A DNA stretch of 59,215 nt, taken from the NCBI GenBank assembly GCA_964449175.1, contig CAYUYH010000001.1:1-59215 (forward strand). The letters run 5' to 3'. This DNA is from an uncultured Planctomycetaceae bacterium. Lineage in GTDB: Bacteria; Planctomycetota; Phycisphaerae; SM23-33. Position numbers and translations under genes: made by a program. Within the stretch, counting starts at the first letter, position 1. Every line of letters starts with the position of its first letter. Below the pieces are notes generated by a model, which worked only from the letters and a program-made list of their open reading frames with translations, had not been told where the DNA came from and did no database searches. Below, piece by piece: positions 31,856 through 52,080 of the stretch.

Positions 31856-31896
31856 CGGCGGACCGCGCCGCTGGGCCGCACGTGGGAGGTGAACCG

Positions 31897-32808
31897 ATGC
31901 GTCAGTTGAGTGCCAAGGAAACTTCAGAGCTGGAGTTCTGGATCGACCACGTCCACGGCGGCGGCTGCGAGAGGGAGTCGGGCCGGCCCTTCCTCGAGCA
32001 GTGGCGCGACGGGGCGAGGGGCAGGCTGAAGTTCTACTTCGAGAACATCCACGACGCCATCGCCCGGGACGGCGCCACGTGGGTGGACGTGGGCTGCGGG
32101 CCGTTCTCCGTCCTGATGGAGGCGCCCGCCGGCATCACCAAGATAATGGTCGACCCGCTGATGAAGTTCTACCTCCACCACAAGCTTGTGCCGCCCGTCG
32201 AGGACACCTCGCGGCACGTCTTCATCGAGGCCGCCGGCGAGGACCTGCCGCTGGCCGACGAGACGGCCGAGATGGTCTTCTGCACGAACACGCTCGATCA
32301 CGTCGCCGATCCGTGGCAGACGCTGTCGGAGCTGGTGCGAATCCTGAAGGTCGGGGGGCACCTGATCATCGACACGGACACCGAGGGCCAGACCGACGAG
32401 ATGCACCCGCATGCCCTGAAGGTCGCCGAGGTGGAGAAGTGCCTGGCCGAGATCGGCGCGCCCAGGACGTTCAGCCACTTCCCCAAAGGGGTCAAGCGTC
32501 GCCCGGGCGCGGTGCTGTACTTCGGCTTCTTCAAGAAGACCGCGCGCCGGCCCGAGCATGCGGAAGCAGTCCCGGCCGGTGCGTCTCATCCGTCGCTGGT
32601 GGCCGAGGGAGTGGACGGGTTCAACATCATCAAGCTGTCCGACTCGCGCCAAGGGGACAGGTACTACGCCATACTGCAGGGCGACGGGGCGTTCTCCTAC
32701 GAGAAGGTCGTCAACTCCGAGTACACTGTCGTGCTGGACGGCAAGAGCGTCGGCCAGGTCAAGCGGGCCATCGGGCGCTACTCCCGCAGCCGACAGCCGA
32801 GCGCCTAG
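31897..32808 (+). CDS. Class I SAM-dependent methyltransferase with a C-terminal 'GFNII' module
   Basis: VDVGCGPFS motif I and LVRILKVGGHLII. GGAGGTGA upstream of the ATG at 31897. C-terminal GVDGFNIIKLSDSRQGDRYYAILQGDGAF. Confidence 0.75.
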   Translation: MRQLSAKETSELEFWIDHVHGGGCERESGRPFLEQWRDGARGRLKFYFENIHDAIARDGATWVDVGCGPFSVLMEAPAGITKIMVDPLMKFYLHHKLVPPVEDTSRHVFIEAAGEDLPLADETAEMVFCTNTLDHVADPWQTLSELVRILKVGGHLIIDTDTEGQTDEMHPHALKVAEVEKCLAEIGAPRTFSHFPKGVKRRPGAVLYFGFFKKTARRPEHAEAVPAGASHPSLVAEGVDGFNIIKLSDSRQGDRYYAILQGDGAFSYEKVVNSEYTVVLDGKSVGQVKRAIGRYSRSRQPSA

Positions 32809-33407
32809 CCGCCCTGCCACAGCGGGATGTTCGCCGCCTTCGTGCAGATCGCGTCGAAGACTATCCCCTCCGATGCGATCTGCCGCCTGTAGTCGGGAAT
32901 CTCCTCGGCCCGGCCCACTAGGTCCGGCGAGACCAGGCAGAGCTTGAAGCCCGCCTCGGTCAGCGCGGCGTACGTCTCGCCGCCGATGGGCAGCCGCGAG
33001 AAGCAGTCCACCCACACCCACCCCACGCGCCCCTGCATGGCCAGGATCGTGTCCAGGCCCTCGAACTCCGAGAACCTCAGCGCGATGTTCCGCTCGCCCG
33101 CCCTGCTGAGCGCGACGATCATCGGAAACGAGCAGTCCAGGAAGAAGTACCGGCTGACGCCGCGGGCGGCCAGCATCTCAGCCACTCTGTGCTCGATCCG
33201 CTCGCTCTTGATGTTCAGGATCATCGTACCGTGGCGATACTGGTCCAGGTAGTCGGCGAAGTCCTCGCCGTCGGCGAACGGATCGTGCTGCATGATCACC
33301 TTCTCGCCGCGGTCGCGCAGGTCGACCTCCACGCCGTAGTCTCTCGGCAGGTCGCGCAACTGGGCTATCGTGTTGATGCGATGCGCGATGAACTCGGTAC
33401 GCGGCAT
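32805..33407 (-). CDS. GDPD/PI-PLC-like phosphodiesterase-fold protein
   Basis: FIAHRINT...GVEVDLRDRGEKVIMQHDPF matches the glycerophosphodiester-phosphodiesterase pattern (HR...E.D...HD). 200 aa. Confidence 0.5.
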   Translation of the reverse strand: MPRTEFIAHRINTIAQLRDLPRDYGVEVDLRDRGEKVIMQHDPFADGEDFADYLDQYRHGTMILNIKSERIEHRVAEMLAARGVSRYFFLDCSFPMIVALSRAGERNIALRFSEFEGLDTILAMQGRVGWVWVDCFSRLPIGGETYAALTEAGFKLCLVSPDLVGRAEEIPDYRRQIASEGIVFDAICTKAANIPLWQGG

Positions 33408-33416
33408 GGCTGGACC

Positions 33417-34454
33417 CTATCGCTCGGCGCTCATGTCCACCACGACCTTGACGATGTCGTGCGGCCTGGGGTCGGTCTTCAGCGAGTACATTCTCTCCAG
33501 CATCTCGCCGAGCTGTGCCAGCGCGATGCGGTGGGTCACCAGACCCTTGACCCAGTCGGCGGCGCCGATCAGCCTGAGGGCCTCGGACCAGTCGTCCGCC
33601 TCGCCGCGCTGGTAGCTGGAGTTCCACACGCCCGAGATGCGAAGCTCCCTGCGGAGGACGCCGGACACCTCGCCCTTCGCCAGCGTCAGGTCACCGGTGA
33701 TGTTGCCCGCCCAGATGACCTGCCCGCAAGGCTGGGCCAGCTTGAGGGACTGCCGGAACATGCTGGCTGCCCCGGCGGCGGTCACGACCAGGGCAAATCG
33801 GCCGTCCGTGGCCGGCGCCTCGGCGGCGGGCATTGCCGTAAGTCCCATATTAGCAGCCAGTTGGAGCTTGAACTGATTCCTGTCAATCACGGTGACGCTG
33901 TAGCCTCGCTCGGCCAGCAGCTTGGCGGCCGTCAGGCCGATCAGCCCGGCGCCTATGACGGCCGCCGGGGCGCTTCGCTCCGGCGGCGGTGCCTGGCGGG
34001 CGATGTGAACGCCGACGGCCATCGGCTCGCACAGGCAGGTGAGCGACGCGTCTACTCCATCCGCTACGGGTAGCAGGTTCCACTCGTCGGCGGTGAGGTA
34101 CTCCTGGAAGCCGCCGTCGCGACGCGAGCCGAAATAGTCGTAGCCCTTGCATAGTGCCCAGTGGCCTTGGCGGCAGGGCTCGCACGGTCTGCACGGGATC
34201 AACGGGAACACCGCGACGTTCTGCCCCGGCGCGAGCGACCGCACGCCGGGGCCCACTTCGACGACCCGGCCGGCGATCTCGTGGCCCATCACCAACGGAT
34301 ACGAATACGCCCCGCCGGCGAACGCGCGGAAGATGTCGGAGTTGCACACGCCGACCGAGCCGACCTTGACCAGGCACTGGCCGTCGCAGGCGGACGGCGG
34401 CGGGCGATCCTGAATCTCCAGGACGCCGTTAGATGTGAGCACCGCTGCCTTCAA
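33417..34454 (-). CDS. Zn-dependent medium-chain dehydrogenase/reductase (polyol/polyol-phosphate dehydrogenase-like)
   Basis: GVCNSDIFRAFAGGAYSYPLVMGHEIAGRVVEVG and GAGLIGLTAAKLL Rossmann motif. The likely start is the TTG at 34454 (LKAAVL...), preceded by GAGGAGG. The ORF-track start is 34475. Confidence 0.8.
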   Translation of the reverse strand: MKAAVLTSNGVLEIQDRPPPSACDGQCLVKVGSVGVCNSDIFRAFAGGAYSYPLVMGHEIAGRVVEVGPGVRSLAPGQNVAVFPLIPCRPCEPCRQGHWALCKGYDYFGSRRDGGFQEYLTADEWNLLPVADGVDASLTCLCEPMAVGVHIARQAPPPERSAPAAVIGAGLIGLTAAKLLAERGYSVTVIDRNQFKLQLAANMGLTAMPAAEAPATDGRFALVVTAAGAASMFRQSLKLAQPCGQVIWAGNITGDLTLAKGEVSGVLRRELRISGVWNSSYQRGEADDWSEALRLIGAADWVKGLVTHRIALAQLGEMLERMYSLKTDPRPHDIVKVVVDMSAER

Positions 34455-35559
34455 GGGCGCCTCCTCGCTTGGCAAACACCCAGAACTTCATTCCGCAGAA
34501 GTTGACTATCGCGCTGACGAGTATCGCGAGCACCTGCCCGAGCTCCGGCCAGATGCCGATCACCTTCACGGCCAGGTATATCGTGACCGTGTTGGCGCCG
34601 AGCGAGGCCAGGTTCACTATCAGGAACTTCCACAGCTCGTGCGCCATGTTCGTGCCCGCGATGCCGAACACGAACGAGCGATTGAGGAAGAAACCCACGA
34701 CAAACCCTGCGAAGAACCCTGCAACCGAGCACACGACCGGGTCCAATCCAACCGCCCACAGCAGGACGATGAACGTGACGTAGTTCGTGGTGTTCGTGAC
34801 GGCGCCGGACAGGCCAAAGCGCAGCACCTGGCCGATGGGGTTGTCCTTCCTGCGCCAGTCGCGCCAACCCATCAGGAAGATGCTCTCGAGGTACTTGGCA
34901 ATCGTTTTGTACTTCTTCAGCAGCGTGCTCGCCCACTTCGACTCGCCGTGCAGCCGCTGGTCGAAGCTCACCTCGATCGAGTTGACGTCCAGGCCCTCTC
35001 TGGCGCCCGCCCAGAACACGTACGTGTCATAGGAGAAGTCCATCGGCGGCTGACCCATCGTCTCCAGCAGCGAGCGGTGGAATACCTTCGGCTGGCCGTT
35101 GATGTCCTCGACGTTCACGCCGGTCAGCGTCGCCGTGATGATGCGCAGCCAGCGGGTGAGCACGCTGGCCCCGTCCCGGCCCGGACGCAGTCCCCGGATG
35201 ATCCCGCGCGTGATGTCAACTTCGCCGGACTCGATCAGCTCGAACGCGCGGAAGATGTCCTCCGGCGGCGTCTGGGCGTCGGCGTGGGAGTAGGCCAGTA
35301 TCTCCCCCCGGGCGGCTGAGAGCCCCGCGTGGATGCCGTGGCCGTAACCGATGTTCTGGTTGATCGTTACGACGCGCACGAACTCGCCGTCGCCGCCCGA
35401 CTGGATCGCCGCCATCACCTCAGCCGTCTCGTCCGTCGAGCCGTTGTTGACCAACACCAGCTCGAAGTCCCAGTTGGCGGCGAATCTCTTGAACCGCTCC
35501 ACCACGACGGGGATGTTCGCGGACTCGTTGTAGCAGGGCAACACGATGCTGTACTTCAT
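34429..35559 (-). CDS. Polyprenyl-phosphate glycosyltransferase (GT2, GtrB/DPM1-like) fused to a GtrA-like 4-TM domain
   Basis: MKYSIVLPCYNESANIP...LVLVNNGSTDET...YSHADAQ. C-terminal LRFGLSGAVTNTTNYVTFIVLL...IVNFCGMKFWVF (GtrA signature). Confidence 0.8.
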   Translation of the reverse strand: MKYSIVLPCYNESANIPVVVERFKRFAANWDFELVLVNNGSTDETAEVMAAIQSGGDGEFVRVVTINQNIGYGHGIHAGLSAARGEILAYSHADAQTPPEDIFRAFELIESGEVDITRGIIRGLRPGRDGASVLTRWLRIITATLTGVNVEDINGQPKVFHRSLLETMGQPPMDFSYDTYVFWAGAREGLDVNSIEVSFDQRLHGESKWASTLLKKYKTIAKYLESIFLMGWRDWRRKDNPIGQVLRFGLSGAVTNTTNYVTFIVLLWAVGLDPVVCSVAGFFAGFVVGFFLNRSFVFGIAGTNMAHELWKFLIVNLASLGANTVTIYLAVKVIGIWPELGQVLAILVSAIVNFCGMKFWVFAKRGGALEGSGAHI

Positions 35560-35566
35560 GCCTGCC

Positions 35567-36355
35567 TTACCTCTGCTGCCAGCCGCTATAGGGGTGGCTC
35601 TCCTCGTGGAAGAAGAAGTCCTCCCACGCCTGGTACAGTTGCAGCTCCAGCGGGTCGCCGAAGGAGATGAACTTCTCCACGGGGAATATGCGGACGTTCT
35701 TGCCGCGGGCGATCACCTCGTTGATGCTCGTGCCCACGTAGAACTCGTTGTTCACGCGGACGTTCTTGTCGATCATCGCCCGGGCGCCGTCGATGAAGTC
35801 GCCAGACCTGCGATAGTAGAACGTGCCCACGACGGCTGGGTCGTACTCGGGCCTGTCGGAGATGATCCGCTTCTCCACCACCTCGGTGACCCTGTCGCCG
35901 TCGGTGCGGCAGAACGCGAAGGCCGCGGGATCCTTCATGCAGACCGACCCCATCTGGAACGTGAAGATCACCACGTCGACTGTCTTGTCCGCGGCGAGCA
36001 GGTCCCAGGCCGCGTGGTCGTAGATGATCTGGTAGTCGATGCTCGAGATCAGCAGCTCCTCCTCGCTGCGGATGTGCTTCTCAGCCAGCAGGCACGTGCA
36101 GGCCTGTCCGTCGGTCACTTCGGGCACGGAGACGATGGCGGAGTTGCGGAAGTACTTCCGCGTCTCCTCGGCGAAGGGGTAGCGCTGGAGGAACTGCTCC
36201 AGGCAGATGAACACGAATCGGTCCGCCGGCGGGAACGAGCTGATCGCCGCCACAAACATCGGCTGTCCCATAATCGGGATGAACGGCTTTGGCAGGCGAT
36301 AGCCGGCCTGGCTGAACCGTCTGCCCCCGCCGGCCATGGGAATCAGACTAAGCAT
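35567..36355 (-). CDS. Sugar/polyol-phosphate nucleotidyltransferase-like protein (GT-A/NTP-transferase fold), copy A
   Basis: LIPMAGGGRRFSQAGYRLPKPFIPIMGQPM (G-x-G-x-R...PKP signature). Tandem paralog of 36348..37136. Confidence 0.55.
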   Translation of the reverse strand: MLSLIPMAGGGRRFSQAGYRLPKPFIPIMGQPMFVAAISSFPPADRFVFICLEQFLQRYPFAEETRKYFRNSAIVSVPEVTDGQACTCLLAEKHIRSEEELLISSIDYQIIYDHAAWDLLAADKTVDVVIFTFQMGSVCMKDPAAFAFCRTDGDRVTEVVEKRIISDRPEYDPAVVGTFYYRRSGDFIDGARAMIDKNVRVNNEFYVGTSINEVIARGKNVRIFPVEKFISFGDPLELQLYQAWEDFFFHEESHPYSGWQQR

Positions 36356-37136
36356 AGCTTATCCGCCTGGCGGCCGTCGCCGGGATATCGTTCCTGAAGT
36401 AGTCGGACCAGAAGGCGAACTGCTCGACGTCGCGCGGCGTGCCCCAGCAGATGAACCGCTCGACCTCGTAGGCGATGACCTTCATGCCTCCGGCGACCAT
36501 GGGGCTGTAGATAAGGCTGATGTAGAACTCCCCGCCGACGTTCTCGCCGGCGGCGAGGACCTGCCGGGCGAATTGCCTGTACGTCCGCCACGACCTGACG
36601 TAGTACACGCCCGTCGAGGCGGGCTCCTCGTGACGATGCTCGGTGAAGGACTGCTTCTCGCGGAGCTCGAGCATCTCTCCCAGCTCGTTGCACCGCAGGT
36701 AGGCGTAGTAGGTATTGCCGAACGAGGCCGGGTGATAGCCCTTGAACACGGCGACGCCGCCGTCGTACCCGTCAACCTTCCAGAGGAACTTGCGGTAGTC
36801 CCAGTGCTGGTAGAAGTCGCAGTAGGTGAAGATGACCGGCTCGTCGTCGTCTATGACGGGGTCGGCCGCCAGCGCGGTCTGAATCGGCCCCATGTCGTGC
36901 GGGTCGATCTCGATGATCGTGTACCTGGGCACGGCGGATGTGAGTATGTCGCGGTACTCCGGCACGGCCCAGTGCGCACGCTGGACGATGAACACGAACT
37001 CGTCGTCCTGGCTGAACATCTCGCAGACCCTATGGCACATGGGCCTGCCGTCTATGGGCATGAACTGCTTGGGCACGGTGTAGCCGGCTCGCCTGAACCG
37101 CTCGGAATTCCCCGCCATGGGAATGACAATGTGCAT
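36348..37136 (-). CDS. Sugar/polyol-phosphate nucleotidyltransferase-like protein, copy B
   Basis: VIPMAGNSERFRRAGYTVPKQFMPIDGRPM. Same length (262 aa) as copy A, with an 8-nt overlap. Confidence 0.55.
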   Translation of the reverse strand: MHIVIPMAGNSERFRRAGYTVPKQFMPIDGRPMCHRVCEMFSQDDEFVFIVQRAHWAVPEYRDILTSAVPRYTIIEIDPHDMGPIQTALAADPVIDDDEPVIFTYCDFYQHWDYRKFLWKVDGYDGGVAVFKGYHPASFGNTYYAYLRCNELGEMLELREKQSFTEHRHEEPASTGVYYVRSWRTYRQFARQVLAAGENVGGEFYISLIYSPMVAGGMKVIAYEVERFICWGTPRDVEQFAFWSDYFRNDIPATAARRISYA

Positions 37137-37153
37137 TGCGTCGATCCTTCAGT

Positions 37154-38059
37154 TCAGCACAGACAATGCGGTCTCCAGTAGGCCACGGACTGCTTGAGGT
37201 CGTCGCCCATCCGCCTCTCAGCCGGGCCTCGCTCGCGGAAACTGATCTCCAGAATGAAGCACACGTCCGTCGCCCCGCCGGCCTCGAAGGCCTGGACGAC
37301 CCTTTCCGGCGTGATCTTTCCCCGCCGGTTGTGTTCGGTGGTGAACGGCCAGTGCCCGCCCTTGTCGTCATGGGACTGCTTGAGATGGATGATGGGGGTG
37401 ATGGCCGCGAAGTGCTCGATCCATGCGTACGGGTCGTTGTCGCGCGCGTCGGCCGAGTCGATATCGCCGTGGTCCACGTCGAGGCACAGCCGCATCGGGA
37501 TGGCAAAATCAGCAAGGGCGGCCTGGATATCCTCGGTCTCGCGGATCGTGCCGCCATACTCCCGCGGGATCGACATCGGCTCCCACGTGAGATACTCCAA
37601 CCCCGCCTTGTGGCCGTGGTCGGCCAGCCGGCGCCAGCAGTCCACGTTGTCGTCGAACACCCCGCGGTGCCTGGCCGGGGCGCTGCAATCGGGGATGGTC
37701 TGGATGCCGAAGTGGCTGCCCATGCTTCTGGCCCCAAGGGCCACGGAGACGTCCGCGAAGGCCTTGAACCACCGCAGCCAATACTCGCGCACCTCGCGGT
37801 CCGGATGGCCGAAGTGGTTGAGGCGCGTAAACGCCCCGGTGAACGTCGAGTGGACGGTCAGCCCATGGTCGTCGGCGATCCGCCGCGTCCGCTCGGCGAT
37901 CCGCATGGCCAGCGGGTCGAGCATGTAGGGCATGAGCATGTCGGCGGTGAGCTGAACACAGTTGATGTCCAGCTCCTCGCGGACAAAGGGGATCCACTGC
38001 TCCGGCGGGGTGAAGCGGTTCACAGCGAAGCCCGTGTTGACCGCCAGCGCGATCTTCAT
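37154..38059 (-). CDS. Sugar-phosphate isomerase/epimerase (xylose-isomerase-like TIM barrel)
   Basis: 301 aa. MKIALAVNTGF...HSTFTGAF...GSHFG...LDVDHGD pattern of the AP-endonuclease-2/TIM family. Confidence 0.6.
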   Translation of the reverse strand: MKIALAVNTGFAVNRFTPPEQWIPFVREELDINCVQLTADMLMPYMLDPLAMRIAERTRRIADDHGLTVHSTFTGAFTRLNHFGHPDREVREYWLRWFKAFADVSVALGARSMGSHFGIQTIPDCSAPARHRGVFDDNVDCWRRLADHGHKAGLEYLTWEPMSIPREYGGTIRETEDIQAALADFAIPMRLCLDVDHGDIDSADARDNDPYAWIEHFAAITPIIHLKQSHDDKGGHWPFTTEHNRRGKITPERVVQAFEAGGATDVCFILEISFRERGPAERRMGDDLKQSVAYWRPHCLC

Positions 38060-38754
38060 GCCTCACCACCCAGGCCGCGCCCCTCGTCTATGGCGCCCTT
38101 CAGCCGAACGAAGCTCTCAGCCAGGGGAACGTCGGACGTGAACAGCCCCGAGGTGCCGAGGACCAGCATGTCCGCGCCCGCGGCGACCATGTTCGGGATG
38201 TTGGCGAAGCTGACGTTGCCGTCAACGACTATGTCCAGCTTGTAGCCGGCGCGGTCGCGCCACTCCTTCAGCCGCTCGATCTTCTTCAGCACCTGGGGGA
38301 CGATCCTCTGGCTGGGCGCGCCGGGGTTGACCGTCATGATGGTGACAAGGTTGACCTCCTCGACGACGTACTCGATGTGGTCCAGCGTGGTGGCCGGGTT
38401 GACCACCAGCCCGGGCGAGAAGCCCAACTGGCGCAGCTTCACCAGCTCGCGATGGAGGTTCCTGCACGCCTCGTAGTGCAGGCTGACGCGAGCGCCTTCC
38501 TGCCGCGGTATGAACTCGAAGATCCGCTTGGGCTCCTCGACCATCAGGTGATAGTCCGACTGGAGCGAGGTGCTGGCGATGATCTTGCGGATGAGGTAGA
38601 ACGGCAGGCCGAACTCCGGCACGAAGTAGCTGTCGCAGACGTCGTAGTGCATGTAGTCGACCGGGAAGCCCTCCAGCAGCTCGATGTCGTGCTTCGGGTC
38701 GAAGAAGTTCATGCAGATCGCGGATGCCGAGATTTTGATGCCGTTGTACGCCAT
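38056..38754 (-). CDS. Ribulose-phosphate 3-epimerase family protein (divergent)
   Basis: ISASAICMNF...YMHYDVCDSYFVPEFG...HLMV...VTIMTVNPGAPSQ...IVVDGNV...AGADMLVLGTS follows the Rpe scaffold, with substitutions in the MDGHFVPN motif. Confidence 0.65.
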   Translation of the reverse strand: MAYNGIKISASAICMNFFDPKHDIELLEGFPVDYMHYDVCDSYFVPEFGLPFYLIRKIIASTSLQSDYHLMVEEPKRIFEFIPRQEGARVSLHYEACRNLHRELVKLRQLGFSPGLVVNPATTLDHIEYVVEEVNLVTIMTVNPGAPSQRIVPQVLKKIERLKEWRDRAGYKLDIVVDGNVSFANIPNMVAAGADMLVLGTSGLFTSDVPLAESFVRLKGAIDEGRGLGGEA

Positions 38755-38755
38755 T

Positions 38756-39826
38756 CTAGCGCCCGTTGGAGTCCCATGGCCTCACGACCACCTTCAGCCC
38801 TTTCTGCGTCTGGACGGTCTCAAACGCCTCGGCGATTCGCTCCAGGCCGAAGCGATGCGTGATCAGGGAGTCAACCTGGATCCGCCCGGAGGCGATCATG
38901 CTGACGGCCAGCGTGTGCTGCGTCGGCGTCGAGCCGTGCGAGCCCGTGGCCGACGCCTCCCGATAGTGCAGCGTGTTGGAGTGCAGCGAGATGTCGCGGG
39001 CATCGCCGGCCAGCCCGCCGAAGAAGTTCACCACGCCGCGCTTGGCGACGACCTCGACGGCCTGCTCCTGCGCCTCGGGGCTTGAGCACGCCGTCAGGAT
39101 CACGTCGAAGCCCTCCCGCTCCTTCGCCACTTGCTCGTCGATCTGCTTGAGCGTGACCTCGCGCCCGTCGAATACGTTGCCCAGGCCCAGTTCCCGCGCC
39201 AGGCGGATGCGGTGCTCGCTGCGGTCGACCAGCGCCACCAGCGACGCCCCGAACGCCTCGGCCGAGCGGGCCAGCAGCATCCCCACGGGCCCGGCGCCGA
39301 TGATGAGCACCGTCTTGCCCGGCGCCATCGCCGCCCGCTCCAGGCCGTTGATGCAGCAGGCCAGCGGCTCGGCGAGCGTGGCCGAGTCGTAGGAGACGTG
39401 CTCCGGGATCGTCGCGACCGGTCCGAACCGCACCGTCAACTCGTTCAGCAGGCAGTACTGGGCGAATCCGCCGGGGAACTGATAGCCGATCGCGTAGTTG
39501 ATGTCGCAGAGGTTCGCCAGCCCGCGCTTGCTCCACTCGTCGGCCATGCTCGGCACGTCCGCGCCGAGGGCGACGCGCCGGCCGGGGCGGAGCCGCTCGA
39601 CGCCCGGCCCCACCTCGACCACCTCGCCGGCTATCTCGTGCCCGATGATGGCCGGATACTTCACCCGGTCGTTGCCGGAGTTGAATATCCGCACGTCCGA
39701 CCCGCACACCGAGCACGCGTGGACCTTGACCAGCACCTCGCCGGCGGCCGGGGCCGCGACCTCCGCGCTCTCGACGCGGATGTCTCCGATGCCGTGCAGG
39801 CGCGCGCATTTCATGGTCCGGCCCAT
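38756..39826 (-). CDS. Zn-dependent medium-chain dehydrogenase/reductase (sorbitol/threonine dehydrogenase-like)
   Basis: ACSVCGSDVRIF...IIGHEIAGEVVEVG and IIGAGPVGMLLA. GGAGGT lies 5 nt upstream of the ATG at 39826. Confidence 0.8.
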   Translation of the reverse strand: MGRTMKCARLHGIGDIRVESAEVAAPAAGEVLVKVHACSVCGSDVRIFNSGNDRVKYPAIIGHEIAGEVVEVGPGVERLRPGRRVALGADVPSMADEWSKRGLANLCDINYAIGYQFPGGFAQYCLLNELTVRFGPVATIPEHVSYDSATLAEPLACCINGLERAAMAPGKTVLIIGAGPVGMLLARSAEAFGASLVALVDRSEHRIRLARELGLGNVFDGREVTLKQIDEQVAKEREGFDVILTACSSPEAQEQAVEVVAKRGVVNFFGGLAGDARDISLHSNTLHYREASATGSHGSTPTQHTLAVSMIASGRIQVDSLITHRFGLERIAEAFETVQTQKGLKVVVRPWDSNGR

Positions 39827-39828
39827 CG

Positions 39829-41799
39829 CTACCTCCGCGAGTCGCCTTCGGACAAGTGGATCAGTGTGTACCGGCCTGCTTCCTGCCGCCGGAAGCCGGC
39901 GAGCGCGTCCGGCACGCTGCCCCGCACGAGAACGGCCTCGACGGGGTTGCGGCGGAGCAGCTCGTCCAGCGTCGCGCTGCCGTGAAGCTCGCGGGCCTTG
40001 CGGACAAGCTCGTCCAGCTCCTCAGCCGTCAGCCGCTTCTTGTGATTCAGCAGCCAATACCCAAGCCCGTTGGCCATCATCCCGTCGGTGACGACAACGT
40101 CCTTGTTCTCGTAACTGTTCAGCGCGTCGAATCGCGCGGTCGGTCTCAGGAAGTCCGTCAGGCGCCGCTCATCCCAGCCGAACAGCTTGGCGTAGAGGAC
40201 GATGCGGTCGAGGATGGCGTCCTCGTCGATGAAGTTGCCGAATGCGCTGGGCAGCAGCGTGGCCCTGGCCGTGATCGCCGGCGAGAGGAGATTGGCCGCG
40301 ATGCTCTCGTAGGCGACCAGCCCGGCGGCGCTGACATCCGACCGCTCAACGGCGTCGATCTGTGCCATAACCTCGCGCATGGCAGATGGAACTGCCTTCT
40401 CGTGCCTGCGGAAGATGTGCACGTCCGTCAGGACGATGTACGCCGACAGCAGGCAGACGCCGATCACCACGTACACGACGCGGTAGCGGTGGATGTATCG
40501 CCGCAGCAGGTCCGGCAGCGTCTGGTGCAGCACTCGCCACGGCCTGGATCTCCTGGCGGAGACGTGCTTGGCCGGCAGGCTGATGAAGTACAGGAACGGA
40601 ATGAAGTAGAAGAACCTGAACACGATGTTCGAGATTCGATGGAAGTACAGCTCGGGGTTCACCCGCTGGCCGGCTACAAGGTGGATGCTGCCTATGAGCA
40701 GGTCCACGATCAGGGCCAGGAACACGGGCATGCATCGCCCGAACAGTTCGTAGTAGTCGCCCTGGAACAGGAAAAAGCTCACCGCGAGAAGCGCGATCGG
40801 CAGGCCGTAGCCGAACATCGCGCCCCAGTCGCTGGTGGTGACGGCCCCGGCGGCCGGCGCGAACAGCTTGTCGGACATCTGCCTGCCGAGCGGGCTGGCA
40901 GCCGCCGCGTAGCATGGCGCGCCGAGCAGGATGCAGACGCCCAGGAATACGGCGATCGAGCCGACGATCGCGCCGAAGTGGTAGCGGCGGTCGGTCATGC
41001 GACGGGCGTAGATGATCCACAACACGAAGAACAGCGCCCCGGCCACAAAGTTGAAGAAGTAGACATACACCTGAAGCGCCCACACGACGCTGAGGAAGAA
41101 CAGCCTCCCAGGCGTCAGGCGGAAGTGCCGCAGCGTCAGGTACAGCGGAATCAGGAACAGTACCAGCGAGATGCTCGGAAACGGGACTCGGGCGGCCTCC
41201 GGCAGTGTGGGGCTCAGGAACGAGCCACCCTGTCCGTTGGCTGATGCGAAGAGCGAGGCGAGGCCCTCGACGTAGTGGAAGCCGGAGAAATACGTCACGC
41301 CGAAAAACGCCAGCAGCACCGCCCAGGTCTTCGAGACGTATCGCTTGAACAGGTGATAGATCAGCCAGAAGATCAGCACCGGCAGGACCCCGTGGGCGAT
41401 CAGCAGGAAGGCGTCGACGTTGCCCAGTGCACAGACCTTCAGGACCACGCCCTCCAGCGAGAACGTGATCCACGGGAACACGGACACCGCCGAGAGTGTC
41501 TTGTCGTATGTCGGGGCGACGGGGAAGAGGTTCTCCGGTGAGAACGCCTGTGCGAACGGCGTGTAGATTACCACCTCTTCCCAGCGCTGGACGGGCACGC
41601 CGACGGCGCCGTACAGGTGAGGCCAGTCGCTCAGGCCAAGGACCAGCACATCGCTCAGGGCGAACAGCGCTAGGACGAGCACGGTCATCAGAATTCGCAC
41701 CGGCCAGGACAGCCGCTCGCTGTGCAGCGACGCGGGAAGGAACAGATACGAGAGGAACCCCGACAGCGTCGACCTGGTGTCTTGTGCAGGATCGCTCAC
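39829..41799 (-). CDS. Large polytopic membrane protein (about 14 hydrophobic segments) with a soluble C-terminal domain; possible GT-C transferase/polymerase
   Basis: 656 aa. Hydrophobicity pattern only; no motif I can name. Confidence 0.3.
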   Translation of the reverse strand: MSDPAQDTRSTLSGFLSYLFLPASLHSERLSWPVRILMTVLVLALFALSDVLVLGLSDWPHLYGAVGVPVQRWEEVVIYTPFAQAFSPENLFPVAPTYDKTLSAVSVFPWITFSLEGVVLKVCALGNVDAFLLIAHGVLPVLIFWLIYHLFKRYVSKTWAVLLAFFGVTYFSGFHYVEGLASLFASANGQGGSFLSPTLPEAARVPFPSISLVLFLIPLYLTLRHFRLTPGRLFFLSVVWALQVYVYFFNFVAGALFFVLWIIYARRMTDRRYHFGAIVGSIAVFLGVCILLGAPCYAAAASPLGRQMSDKLFAPAAGAVTTSDWGAMFGYGLPIALLAVSFFLFQGDYYELFGRCMPVFLALIVDLLIGSIHLVAGQRVNPELYFHRISNIVFRFFYFIPFLYFISLPAKHVSARRSRPWRVLHQTLPDLLRRYIHRYRVVYVVIGVCLLSAYIVLTDVHIFRRHEKAVPSAMREVMAQIDAVERSDVSAAGLVAYESIAANLLSPAITARATLLPSAFGNFIDEDAILDRIVLYAKLFGWDERRLTDFLRPTARFDALNSYENKDVVVTDGMMANGLGYWLLNHKKRLTAEELDELVRKARELHGSATLDELLRRNPVEAVLVRGSVPDALAGFRRQEAGRYTLIHLSEGDSRR

Positions 41800-41957: not shown

Positions 41958-43559
41958 CTAGCGGTTTCCTACCTGTTCCGTGCTGACGCCTTGATATGTC
42001 CGCCGGGCGACCGGCTCAAACGAACAGGCCAGGCCGGCGAATCCGTCGAACCGCTGCTTCTCCTGCACGACAACGTAGATCATGCCGCAGCGGATGTCAA
42101 TCGGCACGTCCTCGGCCGGTTCCTTCTCGGCGATGCCAAGGTCCAGGAAGTAGTCGCCCCAGTGGACGTCGAGCGTGACCGTCAGCTTTCCGATGACGAT
42201 CTCGCCGGCGTCGGCCGGGGCCAGCTCGACGTCGAGAAGCCGCGTGTTCATGCCGAAAACCATCACGCCGTCGACCGTCTTGACGGCCAGGCCGAACATC
42301 GGACGCTCGATCCGCTGCTTGACGCGCGCCTTGATGTAGATGTCCAGCGTGTCTCCGCTGTAGACGGCCGGCGGATCGCACCTGTCGCCGCAGGTGATCA
42401 TGCAGTCGACGATCTCCGCGCGGCGATCGCCGAATCGGTGCTCGTTCTTGTTGTATGCGCCGCGCTGGGGGCACATGTCCATCTCCGGCACGTGGCGGAC
42501 GAACTGCTCCACGGCGTCCTGGGCCCTGTCGCCGGCCCTGGCCGTCTCGTAGACGCCCGCCGTCGCGGTATCGTCCCAGGCTGCTGCCTCGGGCACGAGC
42601 TCATCGACCGCCTGTAGCACGCCCTCCTCGGACGGGGCGATCGCGCACAGGCGGTCGCTCTGGTAGCGGCTGAGGATCGAGTCCGGGATCGCGTCCAGGT
42701 CAATCGGCCCCAGTGCCCGGGCCAGCGCGAAGAAGCGCCGGCCGAACCTGATGATGTTGAACCCCTTGTAGCCCTCGATGAGGATTTCGGGGTAAGGGAC
42801 GTACCCGTCGATCTTGCCGGTGAACAGCAGCTCGTAATAGCAGTTGGCCACGTGGTTCGGCTCGCCGCGTTCGAGCACCTTGCCGTGGTCCAGGAGGATC
42901 GCGTGGCTGCAATACTTTACGATCGCGTTGGTGTCGTGGCTGACGAAGAGGATGGTCTTGCCCATCCGCTGGAATTCGAGGAACTTCTGGAAGCATTTGT
43001 GCTGGAACTTCGCGTCGCCGACGGACAGCGCCTCGTCTATCACGAGGATGTCGGCGTCGACGTGGATGGCCGCGCTGAACGCCAGGCGGACGTACATGCC
43101 GGATGAGTAGGTCTTCACTGGCTGGGATACGAAGTCCCCGATGTCGGCGAAGGCCTCGACCCGCGGCAGGCGGCGCGTTATCTCCTTTTCCGACAGGCCC
43201 TTGAGTCGGCCGTTGAAGATGACGTTCTCCCTGCCGGTCAGCTCGGGGTTGAATCCGGTCCCCAGCTCCAGCAGCGAGGAGACCGACCCGGCCACCTCCG
43301 CCGTGCCGTTCGTGGGGCGCAGAATGCCGCAGATGATCGCCAGCAGCGTGCTCTTGCCGCTGCCGTTCGGGCCGATGATGCCGACCGTGGCCCCCTTGCG
43401 AACGTCGAAGCTGACGTCCTTCAACGCCCAGAACGTGCGATGATACCTCTTGCGCAGAGGATGTATCGCCTCGAGGAGGCGGTGCCTGTGGGAGGCGAAC
43501 AGGCGGTATGCCCTGGAGACTCCGCACACGCGAATGGCTGTAGCTGTCCCGTCGGCCAT
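41958..43559 (-). CDS. wzt: Polysaccharide ABC exporter ATPase (Wzt) with an inserted 'GFNII' module and a C-terminal Wzt_C-like carbohydrate-binding domain
   Basis: Walker A GPNGSGKST, signature YSSGMYVRLAFS, Walker B ILVIDEALSVGD. The C-terminal part (HRFGDRRAEIVDCMI... onward) is beta-rich, as in Wzt_C. True start is the ATG at 43559 (MADGT...); the ORF-track extension to 43865 is rejected. Confidence 0.85.
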   Translation of the reverse strand: MADGTATAIRVCGVSRAYRLFASHRHRLLEAIHPLRKRYHRTFWALKDVSFDVRKGATVGIIGPNGSGKSTLLAIICGILRPTNGTAEVAGSVSSLLELGTGFNPELTGRENVIFNGRLKGLSEKEITRRLPRVEAFADIGDFVSQPVKTYSSGMYVRLAFSAAIHVDADILVIDEALSVGDAKFQHKCFQKFLEFQRMGKTILFVSHDTNAIVKYCSHAILLDHGKVLERGEPNHVANCYYELLFTGKIDGYVPYPEILIEGYKGFNIIRFGRRFFALARALGPIDLDAIPDSILSRYQSDRLCAIAPSEEGVLQAVDELVPEAAAWDDTATAGVYETARAGDRAQDAVEQFVRHVPEMDMCPQRGAYNKNEHRFGDRRAEIVDCMITCGDRCDPPAVYSGDTLDIYIKARVKQRIERPMFGLAVKTVDGVMVFGMNTRLLDVELAPADAGEIVIGKLTVTLDVHWGDYFLDLGIAEKEPAEDVPIDIRCGMIYVVVQEKQRFDGFAGLACSFEPVARRTYQGVSTEQVGNR

Positions 43560-43886
43560 TGTTCGCACCACGCCCCGACAGCGGAAAGCCAAACCGCAGG
43601 CGGAAAGGACTCCCTCAGTGCCGGCCTGGACCGCCATGCCGCCGATCCGGCCACGTCGCCCCATCGCGCCGCACGCGGGCGCTTCGCAGCAGCCCCCGTC
43701 GCCACCGGACCCGTGCCCCATGCACAGCGTCCCTGCTGCAAGGGCAAGGCCAGTTCCTCGTCCGAACTGGCGCTGTCTGCCCGTCGGAGTCATTTCCCAG
43801 CGAGCCAGCGAGTGCATTATATCTGGCCTGGCCAGACGATCAACGGCCAACTGGGATTCGCCCACAAAATCGTTGACAGGCGGGCG

Positions 43887-43918
43887 CCGAGTAGACTAGC
43901 GTGCTTGTGTCTACTCGG
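43887..43918. promoter_or_regulatory. Perfect 10-bp inverted repeat (candidate operator) in the divergent wzt / E1-alpha intergenic region
   Basis: CCGAGTAGAC-12 nt-GTCTACTCGG, starting 8 nt downstream of a TTGACA hexamer at 43873..43878. Confidence 0.3.
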
Positions 43919-44000
43919 GGCAGCATGCGTTGGGAGCGTCGAAAACGGCGCCGCGGGCTTGACGAGGGCCCGGGGGATGCTCCTACGCGCCAAGGATGGT

Positions 44001-44930: not shown

Positions 44931-44960
44931 TGCGGGACTGACGAAAGGCCGCCAGACGAC

Positions 44961-46004: not shown

Positions 46005-46029
46005 AGGGAACACTTCGGCAGGGAGCGAC

Positions 46030-50834: not shown

Positions 50835-50847
50835 CACGGAGGCGGAC

Positions 50848-52077: not shown

Positions 52078-52080
52078 CCC

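What the first reader, a model, noticed from the sequence alone, without database searches (positions are those of the whole stretch)
32805..39826. Minus-strand sub-operon that looks like synthesis of nucleotide-activated alditol-phosphate(s) in a diderm-type glycan island
**Seen in the sequence.** The genes are tightly packed, with gaps or overlaps of 26 nt or less. In transcription order they are:
- MDR Zn-dehydrogenase (38756..39826);
- divergent ribulose-phosphate-3-epimerase homologue (38056..38754);
- TIM-barrel sugar-phosphate isomerase (37154..38059);
- two tandem paralogous NTP-transferase-fold proteins (36348..37136 and 35567..36355);
- GtrB-GtrA fusion (34429..35559);
- second MDR Zn-dehydrogenase (33417..34454);
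- GDPD-like phosphodiesterase-fold protein (32805..33407).

**Established knowledge.** CDP-ribitol for wall teichoic acid and capsules is made from ribulose-5-P by an MDR-type reductase (TarJ) plus a cytidylyltransferase (TarI). GDPD-fold enzymes act on polyol-phosphodiester bonds.

**Inference.** Epimerase/isomerase, then ketose-P reductase, then nucleotidyltransferase would yield an activated alditol-phosphate. The duplicated dehydrogenases and transferases suggest two different polyols or a heteromeric enzyme. A teichoic-acid-like polyol-phosphate substituent on this polymer would be unusual for the inferred lineage.
Basis: inference. Interest (0 to 1): 0.6.

Follow-up and report, generated by a model that had tools for sequence, protein, structure and literature searches.

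The report
Lipid-linked rare-sugar decoration cassette
These genes are one copy of a widespread, unstudied cassette that probably turns a pentose-phosphate intermediate into an activated rare sugar (possibly a keto-pentose such as xylulose), loads it on a membrane lipid and adds it to an exported surface polysaccharide, rather than making a teichoic-acid-like polyol phosphate.

Summary
All eight genes are real, at the stated coordinates and tightly packed. A ninth gene upstream (39829-41799), a polytopic GT-C-like membrane protein, belongs with them.

The set is a conserved, phylum-hopping cassette. Its core is two paralogous nucleotidyltransferases (NTaseA/NTaseB), a polyprenyl-phosphate GT2 with a GtrA domain, and a small GDPD-fold protein. 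The core recurs in most of about 88 bacterial, archaeal and plasmid loci. Viral loci keep the NTase pair but lack the GT2.

The dehydrogenases, epimerase and TIM protein are one of three interchangeable feeder modules. The others are PRK + HAD + class II aldolase, or the epimerase alone.

- The NTases have the RmlA/GalU-type fold, not TarI/IspD.
- They are fused in other genomes and are modelled as a heterodimer.
- The TIM protein is a close homologue of EryC (ketose-1-phosphate 3-epimerase).
- The GDPD protein is often fused to the NTases, and sometimes to a 2H cyclic-phosphodiesterase-like domain.
- No TagF or LicD transferase was found in the genome.

Best reading: a Gtr-type periplasmic decoration with an unusual, probably keto-pentose, sugar. 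An alditol phosphate is at most an intermediate. The scan has met this cassette at least seven times on other DNA, and I found no published description.

The parts
39829..41799 (-). 656-aa polytopic membrane protein, GT-C-like candidate transferase.
   Evidence: About 11 hydrophobic segments followed by a ~200-aa soluble C-terminal domain. No Pfam hit. The nearest Atlas cluster is named RgtA/B/C/D-like glycosyltransferase, score 0.99. W59, H61, E74 and E75 are invariant in the first loop. Orthologues at 23-48% identity sit at the same position in the loci with the full epimerase/dehydrogenase set. The gap to MDR1 is 2 nt.
38756..39826 (-). MDR1, a Zn-dependent polyol/ketose dehydrogenase of the sorbitol-dehydrogenase / threonine-dehydrogenase type.
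   Evidence: Pfam ADH_N + ADH_zinc_N. Best PDB matches are sorbitol dehydrogenases, E 5e-47. It has the Cys38 and His63-Glu64 catalytic-zinc motif, no four-Cys structural-zinc loop, and an Asp after the GxGxxG motif, which suggests NAD (read from the sequence).
38056..38754 (-). Divergent ribulose-phosphate 3-epimerase paralogue.
   Evidence: PF00834 at 163 bits. NCBIfam best hits are allulose-6-P 3-epimerase (166 bits) and rpe (157 bits), both under their cut-offs. PDB best matches are AlsE 3ct7 (E 5e-37), then Rpe. A housekeeping Rpe is elsewhere in the genome at 229 bits. His36/Asp38, His69 and Asp178 are present.
37154..38059 (-). EryC-like TIM-barrel enzyme, a candidate 3-epimerase of a ketose that carries its carbonyl next to the phosphorylated carbon.
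   Evidence: Pfam AP_endonuc_2. PDB 4K3Z, deposited as 'D-erythrulose 4-phosphate dehydrogenase', matches at E 1.2e-81 and 277 bits over residues 2-298. EryC is now assigned as tetrulose-4-phosphate racemase (PMC11508834).
36348..37136 (-). NTaseA, a sugar-phosphate nucleotidyltransferase of an uncharacterised subfamily.
   Evidence: NTP_transf_3 at 37 bits. Model pLDDT 92.9. Fold matches are 4EVW, then GalU, RmlA, GlmU, GMPPB and IPCT. G9, R13, K23, D107, E160 and K161 are conserved in 33 homologues.
35567..36355 (-). NTaseB, a paralogue of NTaseA with its catalytic motifs intact.
   Evidence: 28% identical to NTaseA. G9, G11, R13, K23, D107 and K162 are invariant in 30 orthologues. It is fused behind NTaseA in other genomes. 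The heterodimer model scores 0.92 against a best control of 0.00.
34429..35559 (-). Polyprenyl-phosphate glycosyltransferase (GT2, GtrB/ArnC/DPMS-like) fused to a GtrA/DPMS four-helix membrane domain.
   Evidence: Pfam Glycos_transf_2 (residues 4-134) plus GtrA_DPMS_TM (residues 247-362). NCBIfam best hits are ArnC and PgfS, below their cut-offs. In other loci GtrA is a separate gene next to the GT2.
33417..34454 (-). MDR2, a Zn-dependent dehydrogenase closest to galactitol-1-phosphate 5-dehydrogenase.
   Evidence: NCBIfam GatD at 191 bits, below the 550-bit cut-off. PDB 4A2C at E 1.3e-46. It has a four-Cys structural-zinc loop and an Asp after the GxGxxG motif. The start is TTG at 34454 with a ribosome-binding site, or TTG at 34475.
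32805..33407 (-). 200-aa cytoplasmic GDPD / PI-PLC-fold phosphodiesterase-like protein, part of the invariant core.
   Evidence: No Pfam hit. Atlas clusters are named PI-PLC/GDPD, score 0.97. Model pLDDT 92.7, and fold matches are GDPD/GlpQ. H9, R10, E27, D29 and H41 are invariant. It is fused to the NTase pair, to GT2, to GtrA or to a 2H-like domain in other genomes.
41958..43865 (-). Wzt ABC-transporter ATPase with a C-terminal glycan-binding domain. This is context: it exports the polymer that is presumably decorated.
   Evidence: Pfam ABC_tran + Wzt_C. Same strand, 158 nt upstream of the GT-C-like gene. The Wzm permease is at 22434-23594.

Best explanation
The nine co-directional genes 32805-41799 are one copy of a widespread cassette. 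It makes an unusual activated sugar and adds it, through a lipid carrier, to a polysaccharide exported by the neighbouring Wzm/Wzt transporter.

**Shown here**
- Gene content and family or fold assignments.
- The conserved core: NTaseA, NTaseB, polyprenyl-phosphate GT2/GtrA and a GDPD-fold protein.
- The feeder genes are interchangeable between loci.
- The fusions.

**Inferred pathway**
1. *Feeder.* The Rpe-like epimerase and the GatD-like MDR2 convert ribulose/xylulose-5-phosphate to a pentitol-5-phosphate. MDR1 re-oxidises this at the carbon next to the phosphate, giving a pentulose-1-phosphate. The EryC-like enzyme epimerises it at C3. The two-step redox is cofactor-neutral. In other genomes, phosphoribulokinase plus a HAD phosphatase would reach the same kind of product.
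2. *Activation.* The NTaseA/NTaseB pair, probably a heterodimer, works with the GDPD-fold enzyme to turn this into a true nucleotide-sugar donor. A possible route is NDP-1-ketose, then a 1,2-cyclic phosphate, then an anomeric 2-phosphate, then NDP-ketofuranose.
3. *Loading.* The GT2-GtrA fusion loads the sugar on polyprenyl phosphate, and the product is flipped across the membrane.
4. *Transfer.* The 656-aa GT-C-like protein transfers it to the polymer in the periplasm.

**Odds**
- Overall architecture (rare sugar, then lipid carrier, then GT-C decoration): about 0.6.
- The sugar is a keto-pentose such as xylulofuranose: about 0.35.
- The cyclic-phosphate step: about 0.2.
For: **Conservation**
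- The same genes, largely in the same order, occur in Chloroflexota, Omnitrophota, Elusimicrobiota, Planctomycetes, SAR86/SAR116, Bacteriovoracaceae and DPANN archaea.
- NTaseA + NTaseB + GT2 + GDPD-like co-occur in nearly all complete loci.
- There are three feeder types:
  - MDR1 + Rpe + TIM + MDR2, as in this window;
  - Rpe alone;
  - class II aldolase + PRK fusion + HAD.

**Nucleotidyltransferases**
- The NTaseA fold is RmlA/GalU-like.
- Both paralogues keep their catalytic motifs.
- A-B fusions exist.
- The complex model scores 0.92, with a best control of 0.00. That mark was reached by 58 of 80 solved complexes and 2 of 110 mismatched pairs. The runs share at least 64% of contacts and the partner pLDDT is at least 89.

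**GDPD-fold protein**
- The GDPD fold is confirmed.
- Triple fusions of GDPD, NTaseA and NTaseB (~740 aa) occur in dozens of clusters. Fusions to GT2 and to GtrA also occur.
- About 380-aa fusions carry a domain with two invariant H-x-T motifs. This domain scores 26.4 bits on Pfam 2_5_RNA_ligase2, just under the 27-bit cut-off. Members of that superfamily hydrolyse cyclic phosphates (established knowledge).

**Feeder and carrier enzymes**
- The TIM protein matches EryC at E 1e-81.
- Wzm/Wzt lie in the same island.

**Genome context**
- No TagF or LicD was found in the genome.

**Literature on xylulofuranose**
- Its biosynthesis is unknown, and its genes are not in the E. coli O95/O97 clusters (PMC7685785).
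- It is reported from Eubacterium saburreum T15 (PMC8707391). That species is now placed in Lachnoanaerobaculum (my own knowledge), and the cassette is present in L. orale.
- It is reported from chlorovirus N-glycans (PMC9614988). NTase + GDPD genes occur on giant-virus contigs.
Against: - No enzyme of the core has been assayed, and the sugar's identity is wholly inferred.
- The Rpe-like protein scores slightly better against allulose-6-phosphate 3-epimerase than against Rpe, and MDR2 scores best against a hexitol-phosphate dehydrogenase. A hexulose is therefore not excluded.
- The Rpe-only loci have no obvious way to move the phosphate.
- Many viral loci carry the NTase pair without the GDPD-like gene, so the cyclic-phosphate step cannot be obligatory everywhere.
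- The GT-C assignment rests on topology, a language-model look-alike and synteny, not on a fold or an HMM hit.
- NTaseA and NTaseB are paralogues of enzymes that form homo-oligomers, so the heterodimer score may partly reflect memory of such interfaces.
- The link to xylulose-containing organisms is at genus or virus-group level only.
Confidence: 0.6

Rival explanations
1. The epimerase and isomerase supply ketose phosphates, the two MDR enzymes reduce them to two alditol phosphates, and the two nucleotidyltransferases make two NDP-alditols. The polymer then receives teichoic-acid-like polyol-phosphate substituents, and the GDPD-fold protein trims or remodels them.
For: - MDR2 is closest to galactitol-1-phosphate 5-dehydrogenase, and MDR1 to sorbitol dehydrogenase.
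- Inositol-1-phosphate cytidylyltransferase (4jd0) ranks 5th among NTaseA's fold matches.
- The GDPD fold is confirmed.
- Pairs of nucleotidyltransferase plus reductase do make CDP-glucitol and CDP-mannitol in other bacteria (PMC10918830).
Against: - The core occurs without any dehydrogenase in most loci.
- The known CDP-alditol enzymes belong to other families, IspD/PF01128 plus SDR. TarI matches NTaseA only at E 0.03.
- No TagF or LicD transferase was found in the genome.
- The cassette carries a polyprenyl-phosphate GT2, GtrA and a GT-C-like protein. In all known cases these move glycosyl groups, not alditol phosphates (established knowledge).
- The GDPD-like protein has no signal peptide or membrane segment and is often fused to the NTases.
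- An EryC-like ketose-phosphate epimerase has no role if the alditol is the end point.
Confidence: 0.15
2. The architecture is the same (NDP-sugar, lipid carrier, GT-C), but the sugar is a six-carbon ketose or its derivative. The route would be fructose-6-P to allulose-6-P, then a hexitol phosphate, then a hexulose-1-P, rather than a pentulose.
For: - The Rpe-like protein's best NCBIfam and PDB hits are D-allulose-6-phosphate 3-epimerase (166 bits; 3ct7 at E 5e-37).
- MDR2's best hit is the hexitol-phosphate enzyme GatD.
Against: - These scores are below the family cut-offs and only marginally above the Rpe scores.
- The alternative feeder uses a phosphoribulokinase-family kinase, whose known sugar substrate is a pentulose phosphate.
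- EryC's own substrate is even shorter, at four carbons.
Confidence: 0.15
3. The cassette is not glycan decoration. It makes a soluble phosphodiester solute or a lipid head group, in the manner of di-myo-inositol phosphate or CDP-alcohol chemistry.
For: - IPCT is among the fold neighbours.
- GDPD-fold chemistry fits such products.
- Viral loci lack the GT2/GtrA.
Against: - In cellular genomes the core sits with GT2, GtrA and GT-C-like genes inside polysaccharide clusters.
- No CDP-alcohol phosphatidyltransferase was seen in the window's annotated ORFs.
- On the giant-virus-like contig L096, the one viral locus whose gene table was read, the genes lie beside soluble glycosyltransferases (GT61, GT11).
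Confidence: 0.05

Closest known systems
Three-component Gtr-type periplasmic glycosylation: GtrA/GtrB/GtrC of Shigella and Salmonella phages; CsbB/GtcA/YfhO; ArnC/ArnT; and Klebsiella gmlABC, which decorates an ABC-exported O2 antigen (own knowledge)
   Same: A polyprenyl-phosphate GT2, a GtrA-type small membrane domain and a large polytopic GT-C-like protein are encoded together. They lie next to an independently assembled polymer that is exported by an ABC transporter.
   Different: - The known systems draw on common housekeeping donors (UDP-Glc, UDP-Gal, UDP-GlcNAc) or on UDP-Ara4FN. This cassette carries its own donor-synthesis module of six enzymes.
- That module includes two paralogous NTases and a GDPD-fold protein, neither of which occurs in any described Gtr system.
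- GtrA is fused to the GT2, as in archaeal DPMS.
- The GT-C-like protein has no Pfam family.
CDP-alditol pathways: TarI/TarJ and Bcs1/Acs1 (CDP-ribitol); AbpA/AbpB (CDP-arabinitol, own knowledge); Mnp1/Mnp2 and C. jejuni HS5.18/HS5.17 (CDP-mannitol, CDP-6-glucitol; PMC10918830)
   Same: A pentulose or hexulose phosphate, a nicotinamide-dependent reductase and a nucleotidyltransferase are encoded side by side in a surface-glycan cluster.
   Different: - The known cytidylyltransferases are IspD-family (PF01128). Here the NTases are RmlA/GalU-like and come in pairs.
- The known pathways are completed by TagF-, LicD- or polymerase-type phosphotransferases, none of which was found here.
- The dehydrogenases here are dispensable in most versions of the cassette.
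Brucella erythritol catabolism enzyme EryC (tetrulose-4-phosphate racemase; PDB 4K3Z)
   Same: Full-length similarity, E 1.2e-81. The presumed chemistry is epimerisation at the carbon next to a carbonyl that itself lies next to a CH2-O-phosphate.
   Different: - There are no eryA, eryB, eryD, eryH or eryI partners.
- The context is biosynthetic.
- The substrate is probably one carbon longer.
PDB 4EVW, a Vibrio cholerae RC9 'nucleoside-diphosphate-sugar pyrophosphorylase' from structural genomics, with no assigned substrate
   Same: It is the best sequence match (E 6e-9) and the best fold match (TMq 0.76) to NTaseA and NTaseB, and is of the same length.
   Different: It is only about 23% identical. 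Its genomic context and function are unknown to me.

Membership tests
CDP-alditol (TarI/TarJ-type) pathway | IspD/TarI-family cytidylyltransferase (PF01128) | tested here: not met
   NTaseA hits PF12804 only, and NTaseB hits it below the cut-off. TarI 4jis matches at E 0.034 over residues 13-67 only. No IspD or TarI structure is among the top 50 fold matches.
CDP-alditol (TarI/TarJ-type) pathway | Ketose-phosphate reductase that yields the alditol phosphate | tested here: inconclusive
   MDR2 is GatD-like (191 bits against a cut-off of 550; 4A2C at E 1e-46) and MDR1 is sorbitol-dehydrogenase-like. Both are plausible reductases, but their substrates were not determined. Both carry the Asp typical of NAD-dependent rather than NADPH-dependent enzymes.
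CDP-alditol (TarI/TarJ-type) pathway | Alditol-phosphate transferase or polymerase (TagF/Glyphos_transf, LicD) | tested here: not met
   PF04464 and PF04991 gave no match in the whole genome, which is 90% complete. Neither domain was seen in the window's annotated ORFs.
CDP-alditol (TarI/TarJ-type) pathway | Phosphodiester-linked alditol in the polymer | not testable with these tools
   This needs chemical analysis of the polymer.
Gtr-type three-component lipid-linked glycosylation | GtrB/ArnC/DPMS-like polyprenyl-phosphate GT2 | tested here: met
   PF00535 at 78 bits. The best NCBIfam hits are ArnC, PgfS, PpgS and AglJ, all below their equivalog cut-offs.
Gtr-type three-component lipid-linked glycosylation | GtrA-family membrane component | tested here: met
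   PF04138 at 75 bits over residues 247-362, fused to the GT2. It is a separate GtrA gene in L062, L091 and L092.
Gtr-type three-component lipid-linked glycosylation | Polytopic GT-C transferase | tested here: inconclusive
   The 656-aa protein has about 11 membrane segments plus a soluble C-terminal domain, an Atlas look-alike named RgtA-D-like, and invariant E74/E75 in loop 1. It has no Pfam hit, and no fold was computed.
Gtr-type three-component lipid-linked glycosylation | Separately assembled acceptor polymer present at the outer face of the membrane | tested here: met
   The same island holds Wzm (22434-23594), Wzt with Wzt_C (41958-43865), an initiating Bac_transf enzyme and several GTs.
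Sugar-phosphate nucleotidyltransferases of the RmlA/GalU/GlmU fold | The fold, the N-terminal G-x-G-x-R...K motif, the mid-chain Asp and the E-K motif | tested here: met
   Foldseek top 50. Conserved in NTaseA: G9, R13, K23, D107, E160, K161. Invariant in NTaseB: G9, G11, R13, K23, D107, K162.
Sugar-phosphate nucleotidyltransferases of the RmlA/GalU/GlmU fold | Defined nucleotide and sugar-phosphate substrates | not testable with these tools
   This needs enzyme assays.
GDPD / PI-PLC phosphodiesterase superfamily | TIM-barrel GDPD fold with the His/Arg...Glu/Asp...His catalytic set | tested here: met
   Fold matches reach E 1e-7 with TMq 0.62-0.74. H9, R10, E27, D29 and H41 are invariant. Their catalytic roles are assigned by position only.
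GDPD / PI-PLC phosphodiesterase superfamily | Match to the curated GDPD family model (PF03009) | tested here: not met
   None of the seven members gave a Pfam hit, even at E 10. The protein lacks the usual GDPD insertion and is only 200 aa long.
EryC (tetrulose-4-phosphate racemase) of erythritol catabolism | Sequence similarity over the full length | tested here: met
   4K3Z at E 1.2e-81 and 277 bits, over residues 2-298.
EryC (tetrulose-4-phosphate racemase) of erythritol catabolism | Erythritol-catabolic operon context (kinase EryA, dehydrogenase EryB, isomerases EryH/EryI) | tested here: not met
   The neighbours are NTases, Rpe-like, MDR and GT2 genes in every locus examined.

The most novel reading that the evidence does not exclude
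The NTaseA/NTaseB pair and the GDPD-fold enzyme may form a previously undescribed way of making a nucleotide-activated keto-furanose.

1. A pentulose-1-phosphate is adenylylated or cytidylylated on its C1 phosphate.
2. The GDPD-fold enzyme cyclises it to a 1,2-cyclic phosphate.
3. The cyclic phosphate is opened to the anomeric 2-phosphate. In some genomes a fused 2H cyclic phosphodiesterase would do this.
4. The second NTase makes the NDP-ketofuranose donor.

This would be the missing biosynthetic route to xylulofuranose, or a related pentulose, in E. coli O95/O97 and Yersinia O antigens, the C. jejuni RM1221 capsule, Lachnoanaerobaculum polysaccharide and chlorovirus N-glycans.
Probability: 0.2. 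Interest if true: 0.85.

Novelty: new variant of a known kind. Interest (0 to 1): 0.62.

Why it matters
How bacteria and giant viruses activate keto-pentoses such as xylulofuranose for glycan synthesis is an open question. The 2019 E. coli O-antigen review states that no genes for NDP-Xulf are known (PMC7685785).

This cassette is a concrete, testable candidate for that route.
- It is found from DPANN archaea to E. coli plasmids, marine picoplankton, cyanophages and giant-virus contigs.
- It contains an enzyme combination with no described precedent: a paired NTase plus a GDPD-fold protein.
- If confirmed, it would add a new sugar-activation chemistry. It would also explain a common, horizontally mobile way of varying surface antigens, which bears on serotyping and on phage and immune recognition.

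For this window in particular, it corrects a teichoic-acid-like reading to a lipid-linked glycosyl decoration of an ABC-exported polymer.

Tried and rejected
- **Close relatives.** No NTaseA homologue was found in 40 genomes of the same family, order or class. Vertical inheritance could therefore not be used, and the distribution is patchy.
- **Pfam and PDB sequence searches for the 200-aa protein.** A PDB profile search gave only chance-level hits. Pfam gave none. Only the fold search and the Atlas look-alikes identified it.
- **C. jejuni CDP-6-glucitol enzymes as a model.** Rejected as relatives, because they belong to the IspD and SDR families.
- **E. coli complete genomes.** The cassette is present only on two near-identical plasmids among 5,426 genomes. 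A link to serogroups O95/O97 could not be tested there.
- **Literature.** Searches for any NDP-xylulose or NDP-ribulose glycosyl donor, for papers citing PDB entry 4EVW, and for GtrA + epimerase + nucleotidyltransferase found nothing relevant.
- **NTaseB as a degenerate regulatory subunit (GlgD/GMPPA-like).** Rejected, because its catalytic motifs are invariant.
- **The 262-aa proteins as glycosyltransferases.** RefSeq labels some distant plasmid homologues 'glycosyltransferase family 2'. Rejected on fold and motifs.
- **Viral collection.** It returned unnamed contigs, so chloroviruses MT325 and TN603 could not be checked.

Full report
**Observation**

They have the third-position GC bias of real genes in this 67% GC contig. 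Junctions between them are 1 to 17 nt, or overlaps of 4, 8 and 26 nt.

Pfam and NCBIfam confirm most of the domain assignments:
- two Zn-dependent MDR dehydrogenases;
- a ribulose-phosphate 3-epimerase family protein;
- a xylose-isomerase-like TIM barrel;
- an NTP-transferase protein and a weaker paralogue, 28% identical to it (E 2e-27);
- a GT2 domain fused to a GtrA/DPMS membrane domain.

The 200-aa protein has no Pfam match. An AlphaFold model (pLDDT 92.7) matches glycerophosphodiester phosphodiesterases almost exclusively. The 'GDPD-like' call is therefore right at the level of fold.

The epimerase is a second, divergent copy. The genome has a housekeeping Rpe on another contig, at 229 bits against 163 bits for this one.

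A 656-aa protein at 39829-41799 ends 2 nt before MDR1. It has about eleven membrane segments and a soluble C-terminal domain. Wzt lies a further 158 nt upstream.

**The cassette is conserved and modular**

Homologues of NTaseA (50-68% identical) come from many uncultured lineages. On long contigs from Chloroflexota, Omnitrophota and others the same set recurs, largely in the same order:
- a ~640-aa membrane protein;
- MDR1, the Rpe-like protein and the TIM protein;
- NTaseA and NTaseB;
- GT2 (with or without GtrA);
- MDR2, and the ~200-aa protein.

I ran a tblastn census of the window's proteins against 88 fetched loci: 80 genome loci and 8 contigs. Four genes are the constant core: NTaseA, NTaseB, the GT2 and the GDPD-like protein.

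The remaining genes vary and fall into three types.
- *Type 1:* about 30 loci have MDR1 + Rpe + TIM + MDR2, as here. These include DPANN archaea, SAR86, SAR116 and Bacteriovoracaceae.
- *Type 1-min:* a few Opitutia and related loci have the epimerase only.
- *Type 2:* the rest instead have a class II aldolase-family protein, a ~700-aa phosphoribulokinase-family fusion and a HAD phosphatase. These include Lachnospiraceae, Lachnoanaerobaculum orale, an E. coli IncR plasmid and an Azospirillum brasilense plasmid.

None of 40 genomes from the window's own family, order or class has NTaseA. The cassette is therefore patchily distributed and presumably mobile. Earlier notes of this scan place the genome in Planctomycetota (Phycisphaerae). 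I did not test that.

**What the parts are**

*NTaseA.* The model has pLDDT 92.9. It is closest to the unassigned V. cholerae pyrophosphorylase 4EVW. Next come GalU, RmlA, GlmU, GMPPB and ADP-glucose pyrophosphorylases, and inositol-1-phosphate cytidylyltransferase. No IspD/TarI or GT2 structure is among the top 50.

*Catalytic motifs.* Both paralogues keep the N-terminal G-x-G-x-R and Lys, the central Asp and the E-K motif as invariant or nearly invariant positions. Both are therefore likely to be active nucleotidyltransferases.

*A-B association.* The two are one fused ORF (540-556 aa) in the E. coli and Azospirillum plasmids and in Prochlorococcus. A complex prediction gave ipSAE 0.92 against 0.00 for the best of three controls. 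That mark was reached by 58 of 80 solved complexes and 2 of 110 mismatched pairs. The runs agree in at least 64% of contacts, and the partner pLDDT is at least 89. The interface is the C-terminal helices. Because the two are paralogues of oligomeric enzymes, the pass may partly be memory. It supports association but does not show it.

*TIM protein.* It is a full-length homologue of PDB 4K3Z (E 1.2e-81), which was deposited under the old name of Brucella EryC (own knowledge). EryC is now known as tetrulose-4-phosphate racemase (PMC11508834). That enzyme inverts the centre next to a carbonyl that itself sits next to the phosphorylated CH2. In other words, it is a 3-epimerase of a 'ketose-1-phosphate'.

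*Dehydrogenases.* MDR2 is closest to galactitol-1-phosphate 5-dehydrogenase. MDR1 is closest to sorbitol and threonine dehydrogenases. Both have the Asp that usually marks NAD-dependent enzymes.

*GT2.* It resembles ArnC, PgfS, PpgS and AglJ-type polyprenyl-phosphate transferases.

*656-aa protein.* Its language-model look-alike cluster is named after the RgtA-D GT-C enzymes. It has an invariant Glu-Glu pair in its first loop.

**Fusions of the GDPD-like protein**

A search for longer relatives found many fusion forms:
- dozens of ~740-aa proteins that join the GDPD-like domain to both NTases;
- ~440-aa fusions of GT2 and the GDPD-like domain;
- a fusion of GtrA and the GDPD-like domain;
- a ~380-aa family in which the GDPD-like domain follows a ~180-aa domain.

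That ~180-aa domain has two invariant H-x-T motifs. It scores 26.4 bits on the Pfam 2'-5' RNA ligase (2H phosphoesterase) family, just under the 27-bit cut-off. 2H enzymes hydrolyse cyclic phosphates, including ribose 1'',2''-cyclic phosphate to the 1''-phosphate (established knowledge).

The GDPD-like protein has no signal peptide or membrane segment. It therefore works with the NTases in the cytoplasm, not on polymer phosphodiesters.

On viral contigs the NTase pair is common. It is sometimes accompanied by the GDPD-like gene and never by the GT2/GtrA. A giant-virus-like contig carries PRK, a HAD-aldolase fusion, the triple fusion and several soluble GTs. So the product of the NTase/GDPD unit is a soluble activated donor. 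Cellular genomes then pass it to a lipid carrier.

**Most likely mechanism**

The following steps are inferred, not shown.

1. Two quite different feeders should deliver the same kind of substrate.
   - PRK plus a HAD phosphatase would turn ribulose-5-P into ribulose-1,5-bisphosphate and then into a pentulose-1-phosphate.
   - The window's feeder can reach the same class of compound without ATP. The Rpe-like enzyme sets the C3 configuration of the pentulose-5-P. The GatD-like MDR2 reduces it to a pentitol-5-P. MDR1 re-oxidises the carbon next to the phosphate, which on renumbering gives a pentulose-1-P. The EryC-like enzyme epimerises C3.
   - This explains why there are two dehydrogenases and two 3-epimerases. 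It makes the alditol phosphate an intermediate, not the product.
2. A ketose-1-phosphate is not yet a glycosyl donor, because the anomeric carbon is C2.
   - The invariant trio could move the phosphate. One NTase makes NDP-1-ketose. The GDPD-fold enzyme cyclises it to the 1,2-cyclic phosphate, as PI-PLC and the spider sphingomyelinase-D relatives do. The cyclic phosphate is then opened to the 2-phosphate, and the second NTase makes NDP-ketofuranose.
   - I put about 0.2 on this specific chemistry. It accounts for the paired active NTases, their fusion with the GDPD-like domain and the 2H fusions.
   - It does not account for viral loci that lack the GDPD-like gene, nor for the epimerase-only loci.
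3. The GT2-GtrA fusion then forms polyprenyl-phospho-sugar. The GT-C-like protein adds the sugar to the Wzm/Wzt-exported polymer in the periplasm. Gtr systems and Klebsiella gmlABC work this way (own knowledge).

**Which sugar?**

Xylulofuranose is a known but rare glycan component whose activation is unexplained. The E. coli review states that no genes for NDP-Xulf are found in the O95/O97 clusters (PMC7685785).

Its reported sources partly overlap with where the cassette turns up.
- Eubacterium saburreum T15, now placed in Lachnoanaerobaculum (own knowledge), has xylulofuranose (PMC8707391). L. orale carries the cassette beside heptose-pathway genes.
- Chlorovirus N-glycans contain it (PMC9614988). 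Giant-virus MAG contigs carry the NTase pair plus the GDPD-like gene.

This is correlation at genus or group level only. A hexulose remains possible, because the epimerase and MDR2 score marginally better against hexose-phosphate enzymes.

**Against the teichoic-acid-like reading**

- The core occurs mostly without dehydrogenases.
- The NTases are not TarI/IspD-like.
- The characterised CDP-glucitol and CDP-mannitol enzymes belong to other families.
- No TagF or LicD domain was found in the 90%-complete genome.
- The cassette's own transferases are of the glycosyl-carrier type.

I keep 0.15 on this reading, because substrate specificity is untested and IPCT, a polyol-phosphate enzyme, is a close fold neighbour.

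**Novelty**

The overall logic (GT2 + GtrA + GT-C) is a known kind. The donor-synthesis module is not described in any paper I could find.

This scan has reported the same cassette at least seven times in other genomes, with similar readings. Those notes gave me the leads to the E. coli plasmid, the cyanophages and the giant viruses, which I checked.

- the EryC identification;
- the triple fusions and the 2H fusions;
- the intact motifs of both NTases;
- the heterodimer model;
- the absence of TagF and LicD;
- the redox-neutral phosphate end-swap proposal that unifies the feeder types.

Noticed in passing
window 43440-47499 (+): An E1-alpha-like (496 aa) and E1-beta-like (347 aa) TPP enzyme pair, without E2/E3, is followed by a B12-binding radical SAM protein and two GT2 genes. 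This suggests a branched-chain or C-methylated sugar. B12-radical-SAM genes, only 19-25% identical to this one, sit inside or next to the cassette in other loci such as L008, L009, L015 and L021.
   Followed up: partly
window 27683-31855 (+), 31882-32808 (+) and 41958-43865 (-): A 1390-aa protein carries a C-terminal Methyltransf_24 domain. A second methyltransferase converges on the GDPD-like gene, with a 4-nt overlap of their ends (32805-32808). Wzt carries a Wzt_C glycan-binding domain. Together this looks like chain termination by methylation, read by the transporter.
   Followed up: no
window 15357-17102 (+) and 23748-25502 (+): There are two further polytopic membrane proteins: a PMT_2 GT-C of 581 aa, and a 584-aa protein with about 12 membrane segments and no Pfam hit. 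The island may therefore use more than one lipid-linked donor. Which of them pairs with the cassette's GT2 is not certain.
   Followed up: no
window 49899-55086: A separate NDP-hexose modification set: two SDR epimerase/dehydratases, two DegT-family enzymes and a canonical RmlA-type NTP_transferase of 236 aa at 53050-53760. The island's ordinary sugar-1-phosphate nucleotidyltransferase is therefore a different gene from NTaseA and NTaseB.
   Followed up: no
window 20397-21530 (+): A GHMP-family sugar kinase lies between the initiating transferase and a GT4. A GHMP kinase and a SIS isomerase also flank the cassette in Lachnoanaerobaculum orale (L062), probably for a heptose.
   Followed up: no
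L095:8001-9143 and neighbours: On a low-GC contig with very short ORFs, the fusion of the 2H-like and GDPD-like domains lies next to an FGGY-family (xylulokinase/ribulokinase-type) kinase and GT61 genes. NTaseA/NTaseB-like sequence lies just upstream.
   Followed up: partly
L096 (438-kb metagenomic contig): A giant-virus-like or eukaryote-associated contig with ankyrin repeats and GT61/GT11 genes. It holds PRK, a HAD-class II aldolase fusion and the triple fusion of the GDPD-like domain with NTaseA and NTaseB.
   Followed up: partly
window 12022-15306 (-): A 1094-aa protein with a weak pectate-lyase-like region and a C-terminal PEP-CTERM motif. Both hits are below the Pfam cut-offs.
   Followed up: no
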